From a virus (Duplodnaviria > Heunggongvirae > Uroviricota > Caudoviricetes), in the IMG/VR virus record IMGVR_UViG_2529292908_000014, positions 1 to 17,277 of that record: a stretch of 17,277 bases of DNA. The stretch is one strand, 5' to 3'. The notes beneath the pieces were generated by a model. It searched no databases. It was not told the DNA's origin and saw only the letters and a program-made list of their open reading frames with translations. Positions 7,064-9,854 of the stretch are shown in pieces. The stretch's first letter is position 1. Each line of letters starts with the position of its first letter. A program made the translations under genes and the position numbers.

Positions 7064-7441
7064 TCAGCGTTTTAACTGGAAATGAGGCCCGTCTTTCAGC
7101 GTTTTCCAGTCTCCGCCCCATTCGATGGCGACACCCAGCTCTGCGGCAGCCTGTTTAAAGGCACGGGCGATTTTTTCGTATAACGGCCAGTCCCATGAAA
7201 TAGTGCTACCAACGTAAGCCACGACATCAACGGCATCGCCAGTAAGGTGACGGCTGTTCATGGTCTGGCTCTTGCCTTCAGCGACAAGTTGTTTCTGACG
7301 TTCTTTCGTGCGTAAACCTTCGGTAATACCAAAATCGACGTCCGACAACGCCAGCGCACGGCGTACAACTGCCACCAGTTGTGGCTTTACGTCAGCCAGA
7401 TTTTTCTCGCTACGTTGACTGAAACGGAATTTTCCCGACAT
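7064..7441 (-). CDS. Endolysin, zinc metallopeptidase M15 family (L-alanyl-D-glutamate peptidase-like)
   Basis: ATG at 7439-7441 preceded by GGAGGTG; 126 codons. Zn-ligand pattern H-x3-D (…SRHLTGDAVDV…) and a distal His (…DGPHFQL…). No signal peptide, so holin-dependent. The six-frame ORF extends to 7684, but the internal ATG with a Shine-Dalgarno sequence fits the gene boundary. Confidence 0.8.
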   Translation of the reverse strand: MSGKFRFSQRSEKNLADVKPQLVAVVRRALALSDVDFGITEGLRTKERQKQLVAEGKSQTMNSRHLTGDAVDVVAYVGSTISWDWPLYEKIARAFKQAAAELGVAIEWGGDWKTLKDGPHFQLKR

Positions 7442-7443
7442 AT

Positions 7444-7722
7444 TCACCTCCGCAATAACGAAAGGATTTTTGACAAATTCCCGTGCGCCCACACGATAAG
7501 CGCACAGAAAACCAGATTCAGCGCCACAACCAGCCAGCTGGATTGCGTGTATGTACCGGACAGCCAGCGGAACGGGATGATGACGTAGCCGAGCATCAGC
7601 CAGTACGCCAGCCAGGTAATCATCGGTTTGTGCGCCGCACCGTGGCGGCGATACACAAACAACCCCAGAACAATGGTGAGACACAGCCAGACGTTCACGA
7701 TACCGGCAAGGCTACTTTCCAT
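7444..7722 (-). CDS. Small membrane protein, three predicted transmembrane segments (holin or antiholin candidate)
   Basis: ATG at 7720-7722 preceded by GGAGGGGG; about 92 codons; hydrophobic segments SLAGIVNVWLCLTIVLGLFVY, MITWLAYWLMLGYVIIPF, WLVVALNLVFCALIVWA; ends 2 nt before the endolysin start. Confidence 0.5.
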   Translation of the reverse strand: MESSLAGIVNVWLCLTIVLGLFVYRRHGAAHKPMITWLAYWLMLGYVIIPFRWLSGTYTQSSWLVVALNLVFCALIVWAHGNLSKILSLLRR

Positions 7723-8104
7723 TTCCACCCCCTCCGCCGCGCAGTCTGGAAAACAGGCCGAACAGCGATGAAATTTCCTGTTGATAAAGAAAGGTCAGTA
7801 TCTTGATGGATAACGCCGAGACACCGACCGCACACAATGCATCGAGCGGCTTGTCGTTGTAGTGGGTCAGCCACTGCATCAGTGACGCAGCCACGCCAGC
7901 CCCCAGAACGCCAACCACAAATGCGACGAGCAGGTGGATGGCCATTCGCCAGACCGGGATTTCTTTCTGCTGCGTGACAACAAAAAGCGCCCCGGCAAAC
8001 GCGCCCACCACAACCCCGAAATCGGTATTGGTGAGAAGACCAAACACACTGGCACCACCAATGGTGACTGCCACAGCTCCACCGCCTGATAAGGGTTCAG
8101 ACAT
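7712..8104 (-). CDS. Membrane protein with 3-4 predicted transmembrane segments (putative holin)
   Basis: ATG at 8102-8104 preceded by AGGAGAAA; 130 codons; Gly/Ala-rich hydrophobic helices (…AVAVTIGGASVFGLL…, …FGVVVGAFAGALFVV…, …AIHLLVAFVVGVLGAGVAASLM…); first gene of the lysis cassette. Confidence 0.5.
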   Translation of the reverse strand: MSEPLSGGGAVAVTIGGASVFGLLTNTDFGVVVGAFAGALFVVTQQKEIPVWRMAIHLLVAFVVGVLGAGVAASLMQWLTHYNDKPLDALCAVGVSALSIKILTFLYQQEISSLFGLFSRLRGGGGGNGK

Positions 8105-8286
8105 GAGTTTCTCCTGTAAATCTGAGCCACTGACGGCCCGTAAATAACACCCTGTCAAAGGCACAGAAGCCTTTTGCAGGGCGCTATCCCTTAAGGTGCC
8201 TTGTGGTCTGAGTGGACAGGGTAAACGGTCTGGTGTGGTGGGTACTGCTGAGGGAGTTCAGCACCCCGCGGCGGCGGGGTGATAAA

Positions 8287-8565
8287 TCAGAAGCGGGAAA
8301 GAGAATCCGGCGTAATAAGAGGTTTATTACAAAGCGGAGCAGAGGCGTTCGCCTTTTCCATCGCTGCACGCATCTCGTTTTCGCTGGCGATGATGTCAGC
8401 AATGGCACACTGCAACGCTTCTTCCTGAACAACCATATCCGGTTGTTCGGCCATTCGGTTTAGCTGGCTGGCCAGATTTTTCATATAAGCGAAGCGGCGT
8501 CCGGCAGCATCCCGGGCCTGCTCTGAGTAGGCTGTATACTCGCCAAGTGCCGTATAGTTGGTCAT
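8287..8565 (-). CDS. Hypothetical protein (92 aa) in the position where Mu has the late activator C
   Basis: ATG at 8563-8565 with a strong Shine-Dalgarno sequence (AAAAAGGAGACACTT-ATG); no Mor/C-like motif. Confidence 0.4.
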   Translation of the reverse strand: MTNYTALGEYTAYSEQARDAAGRRFAYMKNLASQLNRMAEQPDMVVQEEALQCAIADIIASENEMRAAMEKANASAPLCNKPLITPDSLSRF

Positions 8566-8591
8566 AAGTGTCTCCTTTTTTCTGAGGCCCA

Positions 8592-9059
8592 TTAATCAAA
8601 AAGCCCCACCTGGGTGGGGCTTTTCAGCGAAGTCTGTTTTTGTCGTCGGTGTATCAGCTGCCATGCGTACCGGTCTGAAATCCCGTAACGGGGACAAAGC
8701 AGTGCCAGCGCCTGCCGGTGTGAAAATCCGTCTCTGATATGCTGCTGTAAATCAGCCATAAAACGGGCGTTACGCAGAGCACGTAACGCATGATCGCAAC
8801 GGGGAATGTAAAACGGAGCACCGCCAAGAAAGCGGATCAGTTTGTTGATTTCGTCTTCGGTCAGCACGTCATGTAACAGGGCATGGACACCGCCAGTACG
8901 TTCGGCGTGTGCGCCGGTTTTACCGCTTAACGTCACGCCACCAAAAGAACGAATCAACCGGGTCATGGCGGGGAAGCCAATCACGCTAATCAGTTGCTGC
9001 ACGGAATCGGGCAGCAGTGCCTGCGCATCGCGAAGATCTGTTTCACTGAAGGTCTGCAT
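8592..9059 (-). CDS. mor: Mor/C-family transcription activator (middle-operon regulator-like)
   Basis: 155-aa ORF, ATG at 9059 with GGAGA upstream. C-terminal region …LIRFLGGAPFYIPRCDHALRALRNARFMADLQQ…YGISDRYAWQLIHRR matches the Mor/C signature as I recall it (LGG..VYIPR … YG.S…VY.I). Lies immediately after gemA as mor does in Mu; being C instead cannot be excluded. Confidence 0.65.
   Translation of the reverse strand: MQTFSETDLRDAQALLPDSVQQLISVIGFPAMTRLIRSFGGVTLSGKTGAHAERTGGVHALLHDVLTEDEINKLIRFLGGAPFYIPRCDHALRALRNARFMADLQQHIRDGFSHRQALALLCPRYGISDRYAWQLIHRRQKQTSLKSPTQVGLFD
8596..8621 (-). terminator. Hairpin plus short T-tract overlapping the last codons of the mor-like gene (candidate intrinsic terminator, minus strand)
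   Basis: Minus-strand AGCCCCAC-CCAG-GTGGGGCT followed by TTTTGATTAA; 8-bp GC-rich stem, short U-tract. Confidence 0.4.
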
Positions 9060-9121
9060 GATGGCGTCTCCGGTAGTAACTTACTGTTATTATAGCCATA
9101 CATGATCGCCTGTACAGACCA

Positions 9122-9148
9122 CAAAAAAGCCCCTGCAAGGCAGGGGCT
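9122..9148 (-). terminator. Rho-independent terminator-like hairpin between gemA and the mor-like gene (minus strand)
   Basis: Minus-strand AGCCCCTGC-CTT-GCAGGGGCT followed by TTTTTTGT; 9-bp GC-rich stem, 6-T tract; starts 6 nt after the gemA stop. Confidence 0.55.
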
Positions 9149-9154
9149 GATTCT

Positions 9155-9568
9155 TTATTGTTTACGTGCTGCTCTGACTCGTTTTCTGGCGTCTTTTGTC
9201 AGCGCCACCATCACCCCGAAAAGCTGTTCATCCGTCAGCCATTCGATCACATGTTGCTTATACATGTGAGATGCCAGTCCTTCCGCATACACCCAGGAAC
9301 GACCGGCATCAGCCAGTAACGCTTCAATTTTGGATAATACCGATTTTCTGCTCATTGCAACACGAGGGCGGCGACCTTTACCAGCGGGGGCCTTGCGCGG
9401 AAATCCCTGTTCGTGCATGTATTCCCGGATGATGCGCAGTTCATCGAGATTGCAGCGTGTGGTGCTGGTTTTACCTGTCAGGCGGATCAGTGTCTGGCGA
9501 TAAAGAGCATCATCCCACCCCAGATATGCCTGACCGGCTTTAATGGCCCCGATCATCTTTTTCTGCAT
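9155..9568 (-). CDS. gemA: GemA-like regulatory protein (Mu gp16 family)
   Basis: ATG at 9566-9568 preceded by GAGGA; N-terminus MQKKMIGAIKAGQAYLGWDDALYRQTLIRLTGKTSTTRCNLDELRIIREYMHEQGF resembles GemA/DUF1018 proteins as I recall them. The six-frame ORF extends to 9667, but the internal ATG with RBS fits better. Confidence 0.7.
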   Translation of the reverse strand: MQKKMIGAIKAGQAYLGWDDALYRQTLIRLTGKTSTTRCNLDELRIIREYMHEQGFPRKAPAGKGRRPRVAMSRKSVLSKIEALLADAGRSWVYAEGLASHMYKQHVIEWLTDEQLFGVMVALTKDARKRVRAARKQ

Positions 9569-9854
9569 GTTTGTTATCCTCAAAACGCACGGTAAAACGT
9601 GAAACACCAATCCCCAACAGGAACGCGGCGGCACGGTCAAGAGACAGCCACGTCTTGTAATCGCCACGGCGTTCCTGTAGAAAACAGGACACCCCGGCGC
9701 GGCGATTCACAGCGAAGAGGTGATACACACCCCCGAACCGCTGCACGACGAACTCATCCACGCCACCGCTTTCAGCCTGTTGCCTGAAAGCTGCCATTCC
9801 GATTTGTTCAATCTTCATAATGACCAAAACATCATTTTTGGCAGACCAAAACAT
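9540..9854 (-). CDS. Hypothetical early protein (up to 104 aa; start uncertain among 9854, 9818, 9797)
   Basis: Open frame overlapping the gemA start by 29 nt; no convincing Shine-Dalgarno sequence for any start; the longest start lies inside the 28-bp palindrome. Confidence 0.35.
   Translation of the reverse strand: MFWSAKNDVLVIMKIEQIGMAAFRQQAESGGVDEFVVQRFGGVYHLFAVNRRAGVSCFLQERRGDYKTWLSLDRAAAFLLGIGVSRFTVRFEDNKHAEKDDRGH

What the first reader, a model, noticed from the sequence alone, without database searches (positions are those of the whole stretch)
8105..8592. Mu late activator C position occupied by an unrelated 92-aa protein, followed by a GC hairpin
After the Mor/C-family gene one expects a second Mor-paralogue (C) driving late promoters. 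Instead there is a 92-aa ORF with a strong Shine-Dalgarno sequence and no Mor/C motif. It is followed by an 8-bp GC stem CACCCCGC-GGCG-GCGGGGTG (8262-8281) without a U-tract and a 180-bp gap before the holin. Late-gene control may depend on the single Mor/C homologue, or this 92-aa protein may be a novel regulator. The gap is a candidate late (lysis) promoter.
Basis: inference. Interest (0 to 1): 0.35.

Follow-up and report, generated by a model that had tools for sequence, protein, structure and literature searches.

The report
Early-to-late switch of Mu-like prophage
This stretch is the boundary between early and late genes of a Mu-like prophage of E. coli: a small conserved helical protein of unknown role, a hairpin that ends its operon, and a late lysis promoter of the kind switched on by the phage's single Mor/C-type activator, which is an ordinary layout for Mu relatives although the small protein is uncharacterised.

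Summary
All genes here are on the minus strand. A 92-aa ORF with an AAGGAG Shine-Dalgarno follows the 155-aa Mor/C-family gene. An 8-bp GC hairpin without a U-tract follows it (8281-8262). A 182-nt gap then precedes the holin.

- The 92-aa protein is a real, selected gene (dN/dS about 0.11-0.17) from a small family found in several Mu-like prophage contexts (phrog_7152).
- It is predicted to be a two-helix hairpin and is unrelated to Mor/C.
- The window and a complete reference prophage (E2348/69) each hold only one Mor/C homologue.
- The premise is off. In Mu itself, gp18-20, not C, follow mor. The cultured Mu relatives I inspected (SuMu, MP22, a Klebsiella phage) show an activator gene followed by lysis genes.

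The gap holds a strong candidate late promoter.
- It has a 16-bp dyad, GCTGA-ACTCCC-TCAGC (8262-8247), with the 5-6-5 architecture of Mor/C sites.
- A -10-like TACCCT lies 39 bp downstream of the dyad's first base, and there is no -35.
- The same box precedes two further late operons in E2348/69.
- The same geometry, with arms that vary symmetrically, recurs upstream of head-protease genes in many Mu-like contigs.

The hairpin is a conserved operon-end structure, not a canonical terminator. The role of the 92-aa protein remains untested.

The parts
9155..9568 (-). gemA (Mu gp16 family), last gene of the conserved early block
   Evidence: Pfam GemA E = 1.2e-17. Annotated GemA/gp16 in E. coli genomes.
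9128..9148 (-). Intrinsic-terminator-like hairpin with a T-tract after gemA (AGCCCCTGC-ctt-GCAGGGGCT TTTTTT)
   Evidence: Terminator scan. RNA fold -18.1 kcal/mol, z = -3.8. Seen in the E. coli-type sequences examined (window, E2348/69). In Enterobacter, Aeromonas, L033 and L034, gemA instead overlaps the start of mor.
9089..9116 (-). Sigma-70-like promoter TGTACA-16-TATAAT upstream of the Mor/C gene. Its regulation is unknown.
   Evidence: The only promoter-like site in 7600-9700, matching 10 of 12 positions. The same sequence is present in E2348/69.
8592..9059 (-). The single Mor/C-family transcription activator, 155 aa
   Evidence: Pfam Mor 28.9 bits against a cut-off of 24.9; phrog_836 E = 7e-42. 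BLASTP to Mu Mor E = 4e-5 and to Mu C E = 1e-5, with the GG..FYIP motif. It is the only hit of a Mor/C profile in the window and in the E2348/69 prophage.
8598..8621 (-). Terminator-like hairpin AAAAGCCCCAC-ccag-GTGGGGCTTTTT overlapping the last codons of the Mor/C gene
   Evidence: RNA fold -20.6 kcal/mol, z = -4.6. Conserved in the E. coli, Citrobacter and E. albertii group only (alignment A4). Only sub-threshold Rfam hits, all on the terminator stem.
8572..8577 (-). Shine-Dalgarno AAGGAG of the 92-aa gene
   Evidence: Read from the sequence. Conserved in alignment A4.
8287..8565 (-). 92-aa gene. The product is a predicted two-helix hairpin of the phrog_7152 family. It is not Mor/C and its function is unknown.
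   Evidence: phrog_7152 E = 1.9e-42, with no Pfam or NCBIfam hit. The family has 64 clusters at 50% identity; most listed members are about 88-102 aa. dN/dS is 0.11-0.17. AF2 pLDDT 91.8, helices 4-40 and 48-78. hhalign against Mor/C gives 0.08%.
8262..8281 (-). GC hairpin CACCCCGC-cgcc-GCGGGGTG without a U-tract, marking the end of the operon that holds the 92-aa gene
   Evidence: A hairpin in the same place with a different sequence occurs in Enterobacter L010, Aeromonas L008 and L033. In Citrobacter it is replaced by a 13-bp stem that encloses the dyad.
8247..8262 (-). 16-bp dyad GCTGA-ACTCCC-TCAGC, the predicted binding site of the Mor/C-family activator (predicted -51 to -36). It lies within the conserved late box GTGCTGAACTCCCTC (8264-8250).
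   Evidence: Perfect 5-6-5 dyad. Invariant block in alignment A3. The box occurs exactly three times in E2348/69, each time before a late operon. The same dyad at the same offset from a -10 occurs in Aeromonas, Enterobacter and L033. The geometry is found in 44 of 72 protease-upstream regions against 0.7 in shuffles.
8218..8223 (-). -10-like hexamer TACCCT (TATCTT or TATTCT in relatives). The predicted start of the late lysis transcript is near 8211.
   Evidence: It begins 39 bp after the first base of the dyad, as in every other instance. In Mu Pm the offset is 38 by my reading of the sequence and the published -51 to -36 dyad (PMC4287176). The -35 position (8246-8241, AGTACC) matches TTGACA at 2 of 6 positions, and the sigma-70 scan finds no promoter in the gap.
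8142..8189 (-). Stable hairpin inside the predicted ~107-nt leader of the lysis transcript
   Evidence: RNA fold of 8213-8095 gives -47.3 kcal/mol, z = -4.3. Citrobacter keeps the outer stem with a different inner stem, and the E. albertii type has a shorter hairpin there (alignment A3).
7712..8104 (-). Holin, first gene of the lysis cassette. It is followed by a second holin (7728..7444) and an M15 endolysin (7441..7064).
   Evidence: Phage_holin_8 E = 3e-25, Phage_holin_3_7 E = 7e-17, Peptidase_M15_4 E = 1e-12; phrog holin and endolysin families.

Best explanation
The region is the early-to-late boundary of a Mu-like (transposable) prophage that uses one Mor/C-family activator instead of Mu's Mor-then-C cascade.

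1. The 155-aa activator gene is followed in the same transcription unit by a 92-aa accessory gene. Its product is a predicted two-helix hairpin. It is more likely a protein-protein interaction module than a DNA binder, it is not Mor/C, and its function is unknown.
2. The GC hairpin right after that gene marks the end of the early/middle transcript. I infer that it acts as a leaky terminator, an insulator or a 3'-end stabiliser. It lacks the U-tract of a canonical terminator.
3. Overlapping the hairpin by 3 nt is a late promoter built like Mu Pm and Mu's late promoters. It has a 16-bp dyad GCTGA-N6-TCAGC at predicted -51 to -36, a -10-like TACCCT, and no -35.
4. I infer that the activator binds the dyad and recruits sigma-70 RNA polymerase. 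That would start a transcript near 8211 with a structured leader of about 107 nt, followed by holin, holin and endolysin.
5. The same box precedes the head (protease) and baseplate operons in a complete copy of the prophage, so one activator would switch on all late operons.

Shown: gene identities, the single Mor/C homologue, the conserved hairpin, and the conserved dyad-to-(-10) geometry. Inferred: binding by this particular activator, the start site, the hairpin's role, and co-transcription of the 92-aa gene.
For: Single activator:
- A Mor/C profile that includes Mu Mor and Mu C hits only 9059..8592 in the window, and only one ORF in the 35-kb E2348/69 prophage. This was a six-frame hmmsearch --max (annotation).

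Promoter:
- There is a perfect 5-6-5 dyad at 8262-8247.
- Mor and C sites are 16-bp dyads centred at -43.5 in promoters that have a -10 but no -35 (PMC4390567, PMC2582627, PMC4287176).
- The block TGCTGAAC.CCC.CAGCAGTACC is the best conserved part of the intergenic alignment, while its flanks diverge (alignment A3).
- GTGCTGAACNCCCNC occurs with no mismatch exactly three times in E2348/69. All three are on the gene strand and intergenic: before the holin, the protease and gp46. My estimate is that 13 fixed bases are expected about 0.001 times in 96 kb of both strands.
- Every instance has nAnnnT starting 39 bp after the first base of the dyad: TACCCT, CATCAT, CAGACT, and GACAAT, CACAAT, CAGTAT in Enterobacter, Aeromonas and L033.
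- In Aeromonas the perfect dyad lies about 160 bp from the hairpin, so the two elements are separable.
- Across 72 distinct regions upstream of Mu-I-type protease genes, 44 show dyad plus -10 plus ATG in fixed register, against 0.7 in shuffles. The arms change symmetrically: GCTGA/TCAGC, GCGGA/TCCGC, CGTGA/TCACG, GACGA/TCGTC, ATTAA/TTAAT.
- No sigma-70-type promoter is found in the gap.

Hairpin:
- Stable hairpins with unrelated sequences sit 4-10 nt after the stop of the homologous gene in four lineages.
- In Enterobacter, Aeromonas, L033 and L034, gemA overlaps mor and no terminator separates mor from the 92-aa gene. The hairpin therefore ends the early operon there.
- Mu has predicted terminators at the equivalent places, before Pm and before Plys.

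92-aa gene:
- dN/dS is 0.11-0.17 and the family has 64 clusters.
- AF2 pLDDT is 91.8.
Against: - No transcript start, footprint or reporter data exist. The -10 in the window (TACCCT) is weak, matching TATAAT at 3 of 6 positions.
- That the 155-aa protein is what binds the dyad is inferred from family behaviour only.
- In the E. coli lineage a strong terminator-like hairpin (8621-8598) lies between the activator gene and the 92-aa gene, so co-transcription there requires read-through.
- A near-consensus sigma-70-like promoter upstream of the activator gene (9116-9089) is hard to reconcile with a silent prophage unless something represses it.
- The hairpin lacks a U-tract, so its termination activity is doubtful.
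- The box is asymmetric in some instances. The right arm is TCCAC or TCACC at the other two E2348/69 promoters.
Confidence: 0.72

Rival explanations
1. The 92-aa protein is a non-homologous functional replacement or partner for C. It would be a co-activator or anti-activator that acts on the Mor/C homologue or on RNA polymerase and sets the timing of late transcription.
For: - The family sits directly next to a Mor-family gene in enteric, Aeromonas, L033, L034 (65% GC) and L035 lineages.
- In L039 the order is reversed (95-aa gene, then Mor). In L006 one gene lies between them.
- That makes about 8 of 13 lineages examined.
- The predicted fold suits protein-protein contacts.
Against: - Three cultured phages with the same activator type lack the gene: Klebsiella ST405-OXA48phi1.1, SuMu and MP22. 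The Klebsiella phage also has a similar box before its endolysin. The family has no tblastn hit in INPHARED.
- Other family members lie among head genes, with no Mor gene in the DNA held for those contigs.
- There is no DNA-binding motif, and fold searches return only generic coiled coils.
- Adjacency may only reflect that both genes sit at the end of the early operon.
Confidence: 0.15
2. The 92-aa gene is an accessory 'moron' unrelated to late regulation, for example a host-takeover or anti-defence factor. It merely occupies a permissive slot at the end of the early operon.
For: - It is optional among phages with the same backbone.
- It occurs in different slots: after Mor, before Mor, one gene downstream of Mor (after a Gam-like ORF, by my reading of its N-terminus), between the Mu F and Mu G homologues, and before a capsid gene.
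- It is small and helical with no enzyme or DNA-binding signature.
- This reading is compatible with the best explanation, which leaves the function open.
Against: Adjacency to Mor in about 8 of 13 lineages, including the reversed order, is more than expected for a freely moving moron. No match to any defence or anti-defence family was sought (padloc was not run) or found.
Confidence: 0.5
3. There is no separate late promoter. The hairpin is a weak terminator or attenuator, and the lysis genes are read through from the promoter upstream of the activator gene. The dyad is just a second small RNA hairpin.
For: RNAfold pairs GCUGA with UCAGC as a small second hairpin directly after the GC hairpin. 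In Citrobacter one long hairpin encloses the dyad.
Against: - The same box occurs before two other late operons where no hairpin precedes it.
- The spacing to a -10-like hexamer is fixed across lineages.
- At some other promoters only the left arm is kept, so those copies would not form an RNA stem.
- The geometry recurs in 44 of 72 protease-upstream regions.
Confidence: 0.08

Closest known systems
Phage Mu middle promoter Pm with its activator Mor
   Same: Both have a 16-bp dyad of two 5-bp inverted repeats and a 6-bp G/C-rich spacer upstream of a -10 hexamer, with no -35. In Mu the dyad spans -51 to -36. The dyad-to-(-10) offset is 38 bp in Mu and 39 bp here. Both lie directly after a hairpin at the end of the early operon.
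   Different: The arms are GCTGA/TCAGC rather than AGTAA/TTAAT (my reading of the Mu sequence). The promoter drives lysis genes, not a second activator. The hairpin lacks a T-tract and overlaps the dyad by only 3 nt. The activator is 155 aa, with insertions relative to Mor, and is about 29% identical to it over 78 residues.
Phage Mu late promoter Plys with its activator C
   Same: It is the first late promoter, immediately upstream of the lysis genes and directly after a terminator-like hairpin. The activator belongs to the Mor/C family, and a related box is repeated before other late operons, as with Mu's Plys, PI, PP and Pmom.
   Different: No C paralogue and no middle operon are present. 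The activator is roughly equally distant from Mor and C. The first lysis genes are holins rather than a SAR endolysin.
Mu-like phages with an activator gene followed by lysis genes: Haemophilus SuMu, Pseudomonas MP22 (D3112-like Casadabanvirus), Klebsiella ST405-OXA48phi1.1
   Same: The order is gemA, then (with or without one intervening ORF) a Mor-family 'late transcriptional activator', then a lysis cassette, then DUF1804 where it was annotated (SuMu). The activators are 32-42% identical to the one here. The Klebsiella phage has a similar box (ACTGAAGCCCCTCAAT) before its endolysin. MP22 has a GC hairpin without a U-tract after mor.
   Different: None of them carries the 92-aa gene. They lack the terminator-plus-promoter module that isolates the activator gene in the E. 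coli lineage. I did not scan their whole genomes for a second Mor/C gene.
PHROG family phrog_7152 (unknown function)
   Same: The 92-aa protein matches it end to end, E = 1.9e-42.
   Different: The family has no annotation. No cultured phage in INPHARED encodes a detectable member.

Membership tests
[quoted passage not shown] | Sequence or profile similarity to Mor/C (Pfam PF08765) | tested here: not met
   No Pfam Mor hit at E <= 0.1. BLASTP to Mu Mor finds nothing, and to Mu C gives E = 1.1. hhalign of the 40-sequence family profile against a Mor/C alignment gives probability 0.08%.
[quoted passage not shown] | Fold: N-terminal dimerisation domain, beta-strand linker with the GG..YIP motif, C-terminal helix-turn-helix | tested here: not met
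   The AF2 model (pLDDT 91.8) has two long antiparallel helices, 4-40 and 48-78, with no strand and no HTH. Foldseek against PDB (which holds Mu C entries 9l0x and 9vw8) and against BFVD returns only generic helical hairpins in the top 50, with no match at E <= 0.001.
[quoted passage not shown] | Pfam Mor above the gathering score, the GG..(F/V)YIP linker motif, and a basic C-terminal HTH region | tested here: met
   28.9 bits against a cut-off of 24.9. The sequence FLGGAPFYIPRC aligns with Mu C FLGGRQFYIPCG and with Mor LGGGQVYIPRG. The glycine that the literature reports as invariant (C residue G79) is a cysteine here.
Mor/C-dependent promoter (Mu Pm, Plys type) | 16-bp dyad-symmetry element: 5-bp inverted repeats with a 6-bp G/C-rich spacer | tested here: met
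   GCTGA-ACTCCC-TCAGC at 8262-8247 has perfect arms and a spacer with 4 of 6 G/C. The definition comes from PMC4390567.
Mor/C-dependent promoter (Mu Pm, Plys type) | A recognisable -10 hexamer, no -35 hexamer, and the dyad centred at -43.5 | tested here: inconclusive
   A -10-like TACCCT starts 39 bp after the first base of the dyad (38 bp in Mu Pm). The -35 position matches TTGACA at 2 of 6 positions, and the sigma-70 scan finds no promoter in the gap. The true +1 is unknown, so the -43.5 centring is only predicted.
Mor/C-dependent promoter (Mu Pm, Plys type) | The same element is repeated before several late operons | tested here: met
   There are three exact copies of the box in the E2348/69 prophage, before the holin, the protease and gp46. 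Only the first of these lies inside this window.
Mor/C-dependent promoter (Mu Pm, Plys type) | Transcription depends on the activator | not testable with these tools
   This needs reporter fusions, in vitro transcription or footprinting.
Canonical intrinsic (Rho-independent) terminator (tested on the hairpin 8281-8262) | A G+C-rich stem-loop immediately followed by a U-tract | tested here: not met
   The stem is present (8 bp, all but one G-C). The tail is CUGAACUCCC, and the terminator scan does not report it. The two neighbouring hairpins (9148-9128 and 8621-8598) do have T-tracts.

The most novel reading that the evidence does not exclude
The 92-aa helical-hairpin protein is a dedicated partner of the Mor-type activator in part of the Mu-like phages. 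It would be an anti-activator or co-activator that contacts the activator's helical dimerisation domain or RNA polymerase. It would supply the delay, or the threshold, that Mu obtains from its two-step Mor-to-C cascade. Its conserved adjacency to Mor genes, in either order, is the only evidence.
Probability: 0.15. Interest if true: 0.55.

Novelty: new member of a known kind. Interest (0 to 1): 0.33.

Why it matters
The layout shows how a common E. coli Mu-like prophage probably turns on lysis and morphogenesis. The prophage is present in 61 of 5,426 complete genomes, including EPEC E2348/69. It appears to use one activator and one promoter box rather than Mu's cascade.

The work gives a concrete, testable binding-site model: GCTGA-N6-TCAGC, 39 bp upstream of the -10. 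The symmetric variation of the dyad arms across relatives offers a natural specificity series for Mor/C-family proteins, whose tetrameric DNA recognition was described only recently (bioRxiv 10.1101/2025.05.02.651988).

The 92-aa family is an uncharacterised gene that often accompanies Mor genes. If it modulates the activator, it would be a new layer of late-gene timing. If it does not, it is one more accessory gene.

Tried and rejected
- INPHARED phages: megablast with 7600-9700 and tblastn with the 92-aa protein and two divergent family members (P0016, P0019) found nothing.
- Mu gp18, the gene that really follows mor in Mu: no similarity to the 92-aa protein.
- PDB sequence searches, single sequence and family profile: only coiled-coil noise.
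- Foldseek against PDB and BFVD: only generic helical hairpins such as AcrA and seryl-tRNA synthetase arms.
- NCBIfam: no family.
- Rfam on 7900-9200: only sub-threshold hits on the terminator stem at 8621-8598.
- A sigma-70 promoter in the gap: the perfect TTGACA at 8158-8153 has no -10 at 16-18 bp and is deleted in the E. albertii-type relatives. Rejected.
- A Pm-like promoter for the 92-aa gene: GCTGA-AAAGCC-CCACC at 8628-8613 has only 3 of 5 arm pairs and no -10 at the right offset. Rejected.
- Operator repeats: CTGTACAG and AGTAAGTTACT at the promoter of the activator gene are not repeated in an informative way in the window.
- A co-fold of the 92-aa protein with the activator could not be run with the tools given.
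Full report
**Anatomy.** All genes of the window run on the minus strand. Going downstream, the order is as follows.

- gemA, 9568..9155 (Pfam GemA).
- A terminator hairpin with a T-tract, 9148-9128.
- A sigma-70-like promoter, TGTACA-16-TATAAT, 9116-9089.
- A 155-aa Mor/C-family gene, 9059..8592. Pfam Mor scores 28.9 bits against a cut-off of 24.9, and phrog_836 'late transcriptional activator' gives E = 7e-42.
- A second terminator-like hairpin, AAAAGCCCCAC-ccag-GTGGGGCTTTTT, 8621-8598, overlapping the last codons of that gene.
- AAGGAG at 8577-8572, then the 92-aa ORF, 8565..8287.
- The GC hairpin, 8281-8262.
- A 182-nt gap.
- Two holins (8104..7712 and 7728..7444) and an M15 endolysin (7441..7064).
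- Further downstream: DUF1804, a DNA methyltransferase (RefSeq annotation of the E2348/69 copy), and the terminase and portal region.

**Where it comes from.**
- The 2.1-kb stretch is 95-99% identical to 58 complete E. coli genomes, out of 61 of 5,426 with any match. These include EPEC E2348/69.
- There the stretch lies in a prophage inserted in eutC. By my estimate from the annotation table, the prophage is about 35 kb.
- It carries a Mu-type transposase, an AAA ATPase, GemA, a Mu-type portal, Mu F, G and I homologues, the gpT capsid protein and a contractile tail.
- No cultured phage in INPHARED matches at the DNA level.
- RefSeq annotates the 92-aa product as a hypothetical protein.

**The 92-aa gene is real and is not Mor/C.**
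- It matches phrog_7152 (unknown function) end to end, E = 1.9e-42.
- An exhaustive profile search finds 64 clusters at 50% identity. Most listed members are 88-102 aa.
- The conserved motifs are an N-terminal NYxALGEYTAY, RRF, and a C-terminal EMRAAxxRANxAAxLCG.
- Against relatives, dN/dS is 0.11-0.17.
- AlphaFold2 with the family alignment gives pLDDT 91.8 and two long antiparallel helices, 4-40 and 48-78.
- Foldseek returns only generic helical hairpins.
- There is no Pfam Mor hit and no BLASTP similarity to Mu Mor or Mu C. A profile-profile comparison with a Mor/C alignment gives probability 0.08%.
The protein does not align to Mor/C at the sequence, profile or predicted-fold level.
- A Mor/C profile that includes Mu Mor and Mu C finds only one gene in the window, and only one in the whole E2348/69 prophage. 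That search was six-frame with filters off.

**The premise needs correcting.**
- In Mu, mor is followed by the Pm promoter and its terminator, then gp18, gp19 and gp20, and only then C. The slot directly after mor is not C's. The 92-aa protein is also unrelated to gp18.
- The 155-aa activator belongs to a subgroup shared with Klebsiella ST405-OXA48phi1.1 (42% identity), Haemophilus SuMu, Mannheimia 3927AP2 and the Pseudomonas D3112/MP22 group.
- In the three phages whose annotation I inspected, the order is gemA, then the activator (with or without one intervening ORF), then, after zero to two small ORFs, a lysis cassette. No second activator is annotated in the roughly 5 kb inspected.
- The literature likewise treats 'the late regulator Mor/C' as one core gene of transposable phages (PMC8705779).
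- A single activator is therefore probably the ordinary state for Mu relatives. Mu's two-step cascade looks like the special case.

**The gap holds a Mor/C-type late promoter.**

*Conservation and architecture in the window.*
- I aligned the intergenic region from E. coli, Citrobacter, E. albertii-type and Enterobacter relatives. The best conserved block is TGCTGAAC.CCC.CAGCAGTACC, immediately 3' of the hairpin, while the flanks diverge (alignment A3).
- Inside that block is a perfect 16-bp dyad, GCTGA-ACTCCC-TCAGC (8262-8247).
- This is the architecture reported for Mor and C sites. They have two 5-bp inverted repeats and a G/C-rich 6-bp spacer, are centred at -43.5 (positions -51 to -36), and sit in promoters that have a -10 but no -35 (PMC4390567, PMC2582627, PMC4287176).
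- A -10-like TACCCT (TATCTT or TATTCT in relatives) begins 39 bp after the first base of the dyad. In Mu Pm, AGTAA-AGCCGG-TTAAT to TATCCT is 38 bp. That is my reading, and it is consistent with the published -51 to -36.
- The -35 position reads AGTACC, and the sigma-70 scan finds nothing in the gap.

*Repeats of the box in E2348/69.*
- The box GTGCTGAACNCCCNC occurs with no mismatch exactly three times. All three are on the gene strand in intergenic DNA: before the holin, before the Mu-I-type protease, and before gp46.
- My estimate is that 13 fixed bases are expected about 0.001 times in 96 kb of both strands.
- All three copies have nAnnnT at the same offset.

*Divergent relatives.* The geometry holds in three further lineages.
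- Enterobacter: GCTGA-AGCCCT-TCATC, with GACAAT as the -10.
- L033: GCTGA-ACCCCA-TCACA, with CAGTAT as the -10.
- Aeromonas: a perfect GCTGA-AGCTTG-TCAGC, with CACAAT as the -10. Here the dyad lies about 160 bp from the hairpin, so the hairpin and the promoter are separate elements.

*Independent test on protease genes.*
- I fetched 79 viral loci that encode relatives of the E2348/69 protease, at 99% down to 37% identity.
- 44 of 72 distinct upstream regions show three features in fixed register. They have a 5-6-5 dyad with at least 4 of 5 arm pairs, nAnnnT at offset 38-41 (mostly 39), and the ATG 6-7 nt later.
- Shuffled controls average 0.7, with a maximum of 4.
- The arms change symmetrically from lineage to lineage: GCTGA/TCAGC, GCGGA/TCCGC, CGTGA/TCACG, GACGA/TCGTC, ACTAA/TTAGT. 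ATTAA/TTAAT resembles Mu's Mor site. Symmetric change is what a dimeric recognition site is expected to show.

I therefore read 8264-8218 as the lysis late promoter of this prophage. The predicted start is near 8211, with a leader of about 107 nt.

**The hairpin.**
- It lacks a U-tract, so it does not meet the definition of a canonical intrinsic terminator. It is still not a chance feature.
- The only three perfect GC-rich hairpins of at least 8 bp in the window all lie at cistron boundaries around the activator gene and the 92-aa gene.
- Stable hairpins of unrelated sequence follow the stop codon of the homologous gene in Enterobacter (ATTCCTCCCC/GGGGAGGAAT), Aeromonas (GGTCACCC/GGGTGGCC) and L033 (CTCCCTCGGC/GCCGGGGGAG). 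Their fold energies are -18 to -21 kcal/mol.
- In Citrobacter the hairpin is replaced by a 13-bp stem that encloses the dyad.
- In Enterobacter, Aeromonas, L033 and L034, gemA overlaps mor, and nothing separates mor from the 92-aa gene. There the hairpin ends the early operon, like the terminators that precede Pm and Plys in Mu.
- MP22 has a similar U-less GC hairpin right after mor.
- My inference is that the hairpin limits read-through into the lysis genes before the activator accumulates, or stabilises the 3' end of the transcript, or both. This is not shown.

**What the 92-aa protein might do.**

*Contexts where it accompanies a Mor gene.*
- It directly follows a Mor-family gene in the E. 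coli, Citrobacter and E. albertii group, and in Enterobacter, Aeromonas, L033, L034 (65% G+C) and L035/L036.
- It directly precedes Mor in L039.
- In L006 it is one gene away from Mor.

*Contexts where it does not.*
- One member lies between the Mu F and Mu G homologues.
- One lies before a capsid fusion gene.
- Three lie on short contigs where no Mor gene was detected.

*Reading.*
- The family is absent from SuMu, MP22 and the Klebsiella phage. The Klebsiella phage nevertheless carries a similar box, ACTGAAGCCCCTCAAT, before its endolysin.
- The protein is therefore optional, and probably not required for activation.
- I rate 'accessory gene parked at the end of the early operon' as most likely, at about 0.5.
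- I rate 'modulator of the activator' at about 0.15.
- Neither reading can be decided with these tools.

**Unresolved points.**
- The E. coli lineage alone has inserted a terminator and a near-consensus sigma-70-like promoter in front of the activator gene. It also has a strong terminator-like hairpin between that gene and the 92-aa gene (alignment A4).
- I cannot explain how that promoter is kept silent in a lysogen, or how the 92-aa gene is expressed past the terminator.
- The predicted lysis leader contains a very stable hairpin (8189-8142). Its inner stem is replaced in Citrobacter, and the whole hairpin is shortened in E. albertii-type relatives.

**Verdict.**
- What is there is an ordinary early-to-late boundary of a Mu relative that appears to use a single Mor/C-type activator, with a well-supported candidate late promoter.
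- One uncharacterised but conserved small gene sits in it.

Noticed in passing
L015 23218-23274 and 35134-35189 (E2348/69 prophage, outside the window); L043-L121; L034 6428-6483: At the head (protease) and gp46 late promoters, the predicted transcription start falls on the annotated ATG, and there is no Shine-Dalgarno. The pattern is a -10-like hexamer, 6-7 nt of G/C-rich sequence, then the ATG. The full geometry of dyad, -10 and ATG recurs in 44 of 72 distinct protease-upstream regions of Mu-like contigs, against 0.7 in shuffles. This suggests leaderless late mRNAs across a large clade. In Mu itself the first ATG lies about 17 nt after the -10-like CAAACT. A search of the held paper library for 'leaderless' with 'Mu-like' and 'Mor' found nothing relevant.
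   Followed up: partly
L043-L121, upstream of the protease genes: The 5-bp arms of the dyad vary symmetrically between lineages, while the spacer keeps roughly A(C/G)CCCT and the offset to the -10 stays at 39-40. Examples are GCTGA/TCAGC, GCGGA/TCCGC, CGTGA/TCACG, GACGA/TCGTC, ACTAA/TTAGT and ATTAA/TTAAT. This gives a natural series of specificity changes for Mor/C-family activators.
   Followed up: partly
window 9089-9148 (minus strand): In the E. coli-type sequences examined, the activator gene is cut off from gemA by a canonical terminator. It also has its own near-consensus sigma-70-like promoter (TGTACA-16-TATAAT), with palindromes at the -35 (CTGTACAG) and at the predicted start (AGTAAGTTACT). 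In Enterobacter, Aeromonas and two IMG/VR relatives, gemA overlaps the activator gene instead. How this promoter is silenced in a lysogen is unexplained.
   Followed up: partly
window 8598-8621 (minus strand): A strong bidirectional-looking terminator hairpin is encoded within the last codons of the activator gene (...SPTQVGLFD), 33 nt before the start of the 92-aa gene. It occurs in the E. coli, Citrobacter and E. albertii group only. Expression of the 92-aa gene there must rely on read-through or on an unseen promoter.
   Followed up: partly
window 8142-8189 (minus strand): The predicted leader of the lysis transcript contains a very stable hairpin. The fold of 8213-8095 gives -47 kcal/mol, z = -4.3. 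Citrobacter keeps the outer stem with a different inner stem, and E. albertii-type relatives have a shorter hairpin at the same place. It may be an attenuator or a stability element for the lysis genes.
   Followed up: partly
L002-L004 and L016-L020, compared with the window between gemA and the activator gene: The slot between gemA and the activator gene is a variable insertion point. Different relatives carry unrelated extra ORFs there, of 112 to 174 aa. The endolysin also alternates between an M15 peptidase (this window) and a GH108 enzyme.
   Followed up: no
L034 6370-6427: Tandem 7-bp repeats (CACCCTT, several copies) lie between a terminator and the perfect dyad GCTGACCCCCATCAGC, upstream of the amidase gene of a 65% G+C Mu-like contig.
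   Followed up: no
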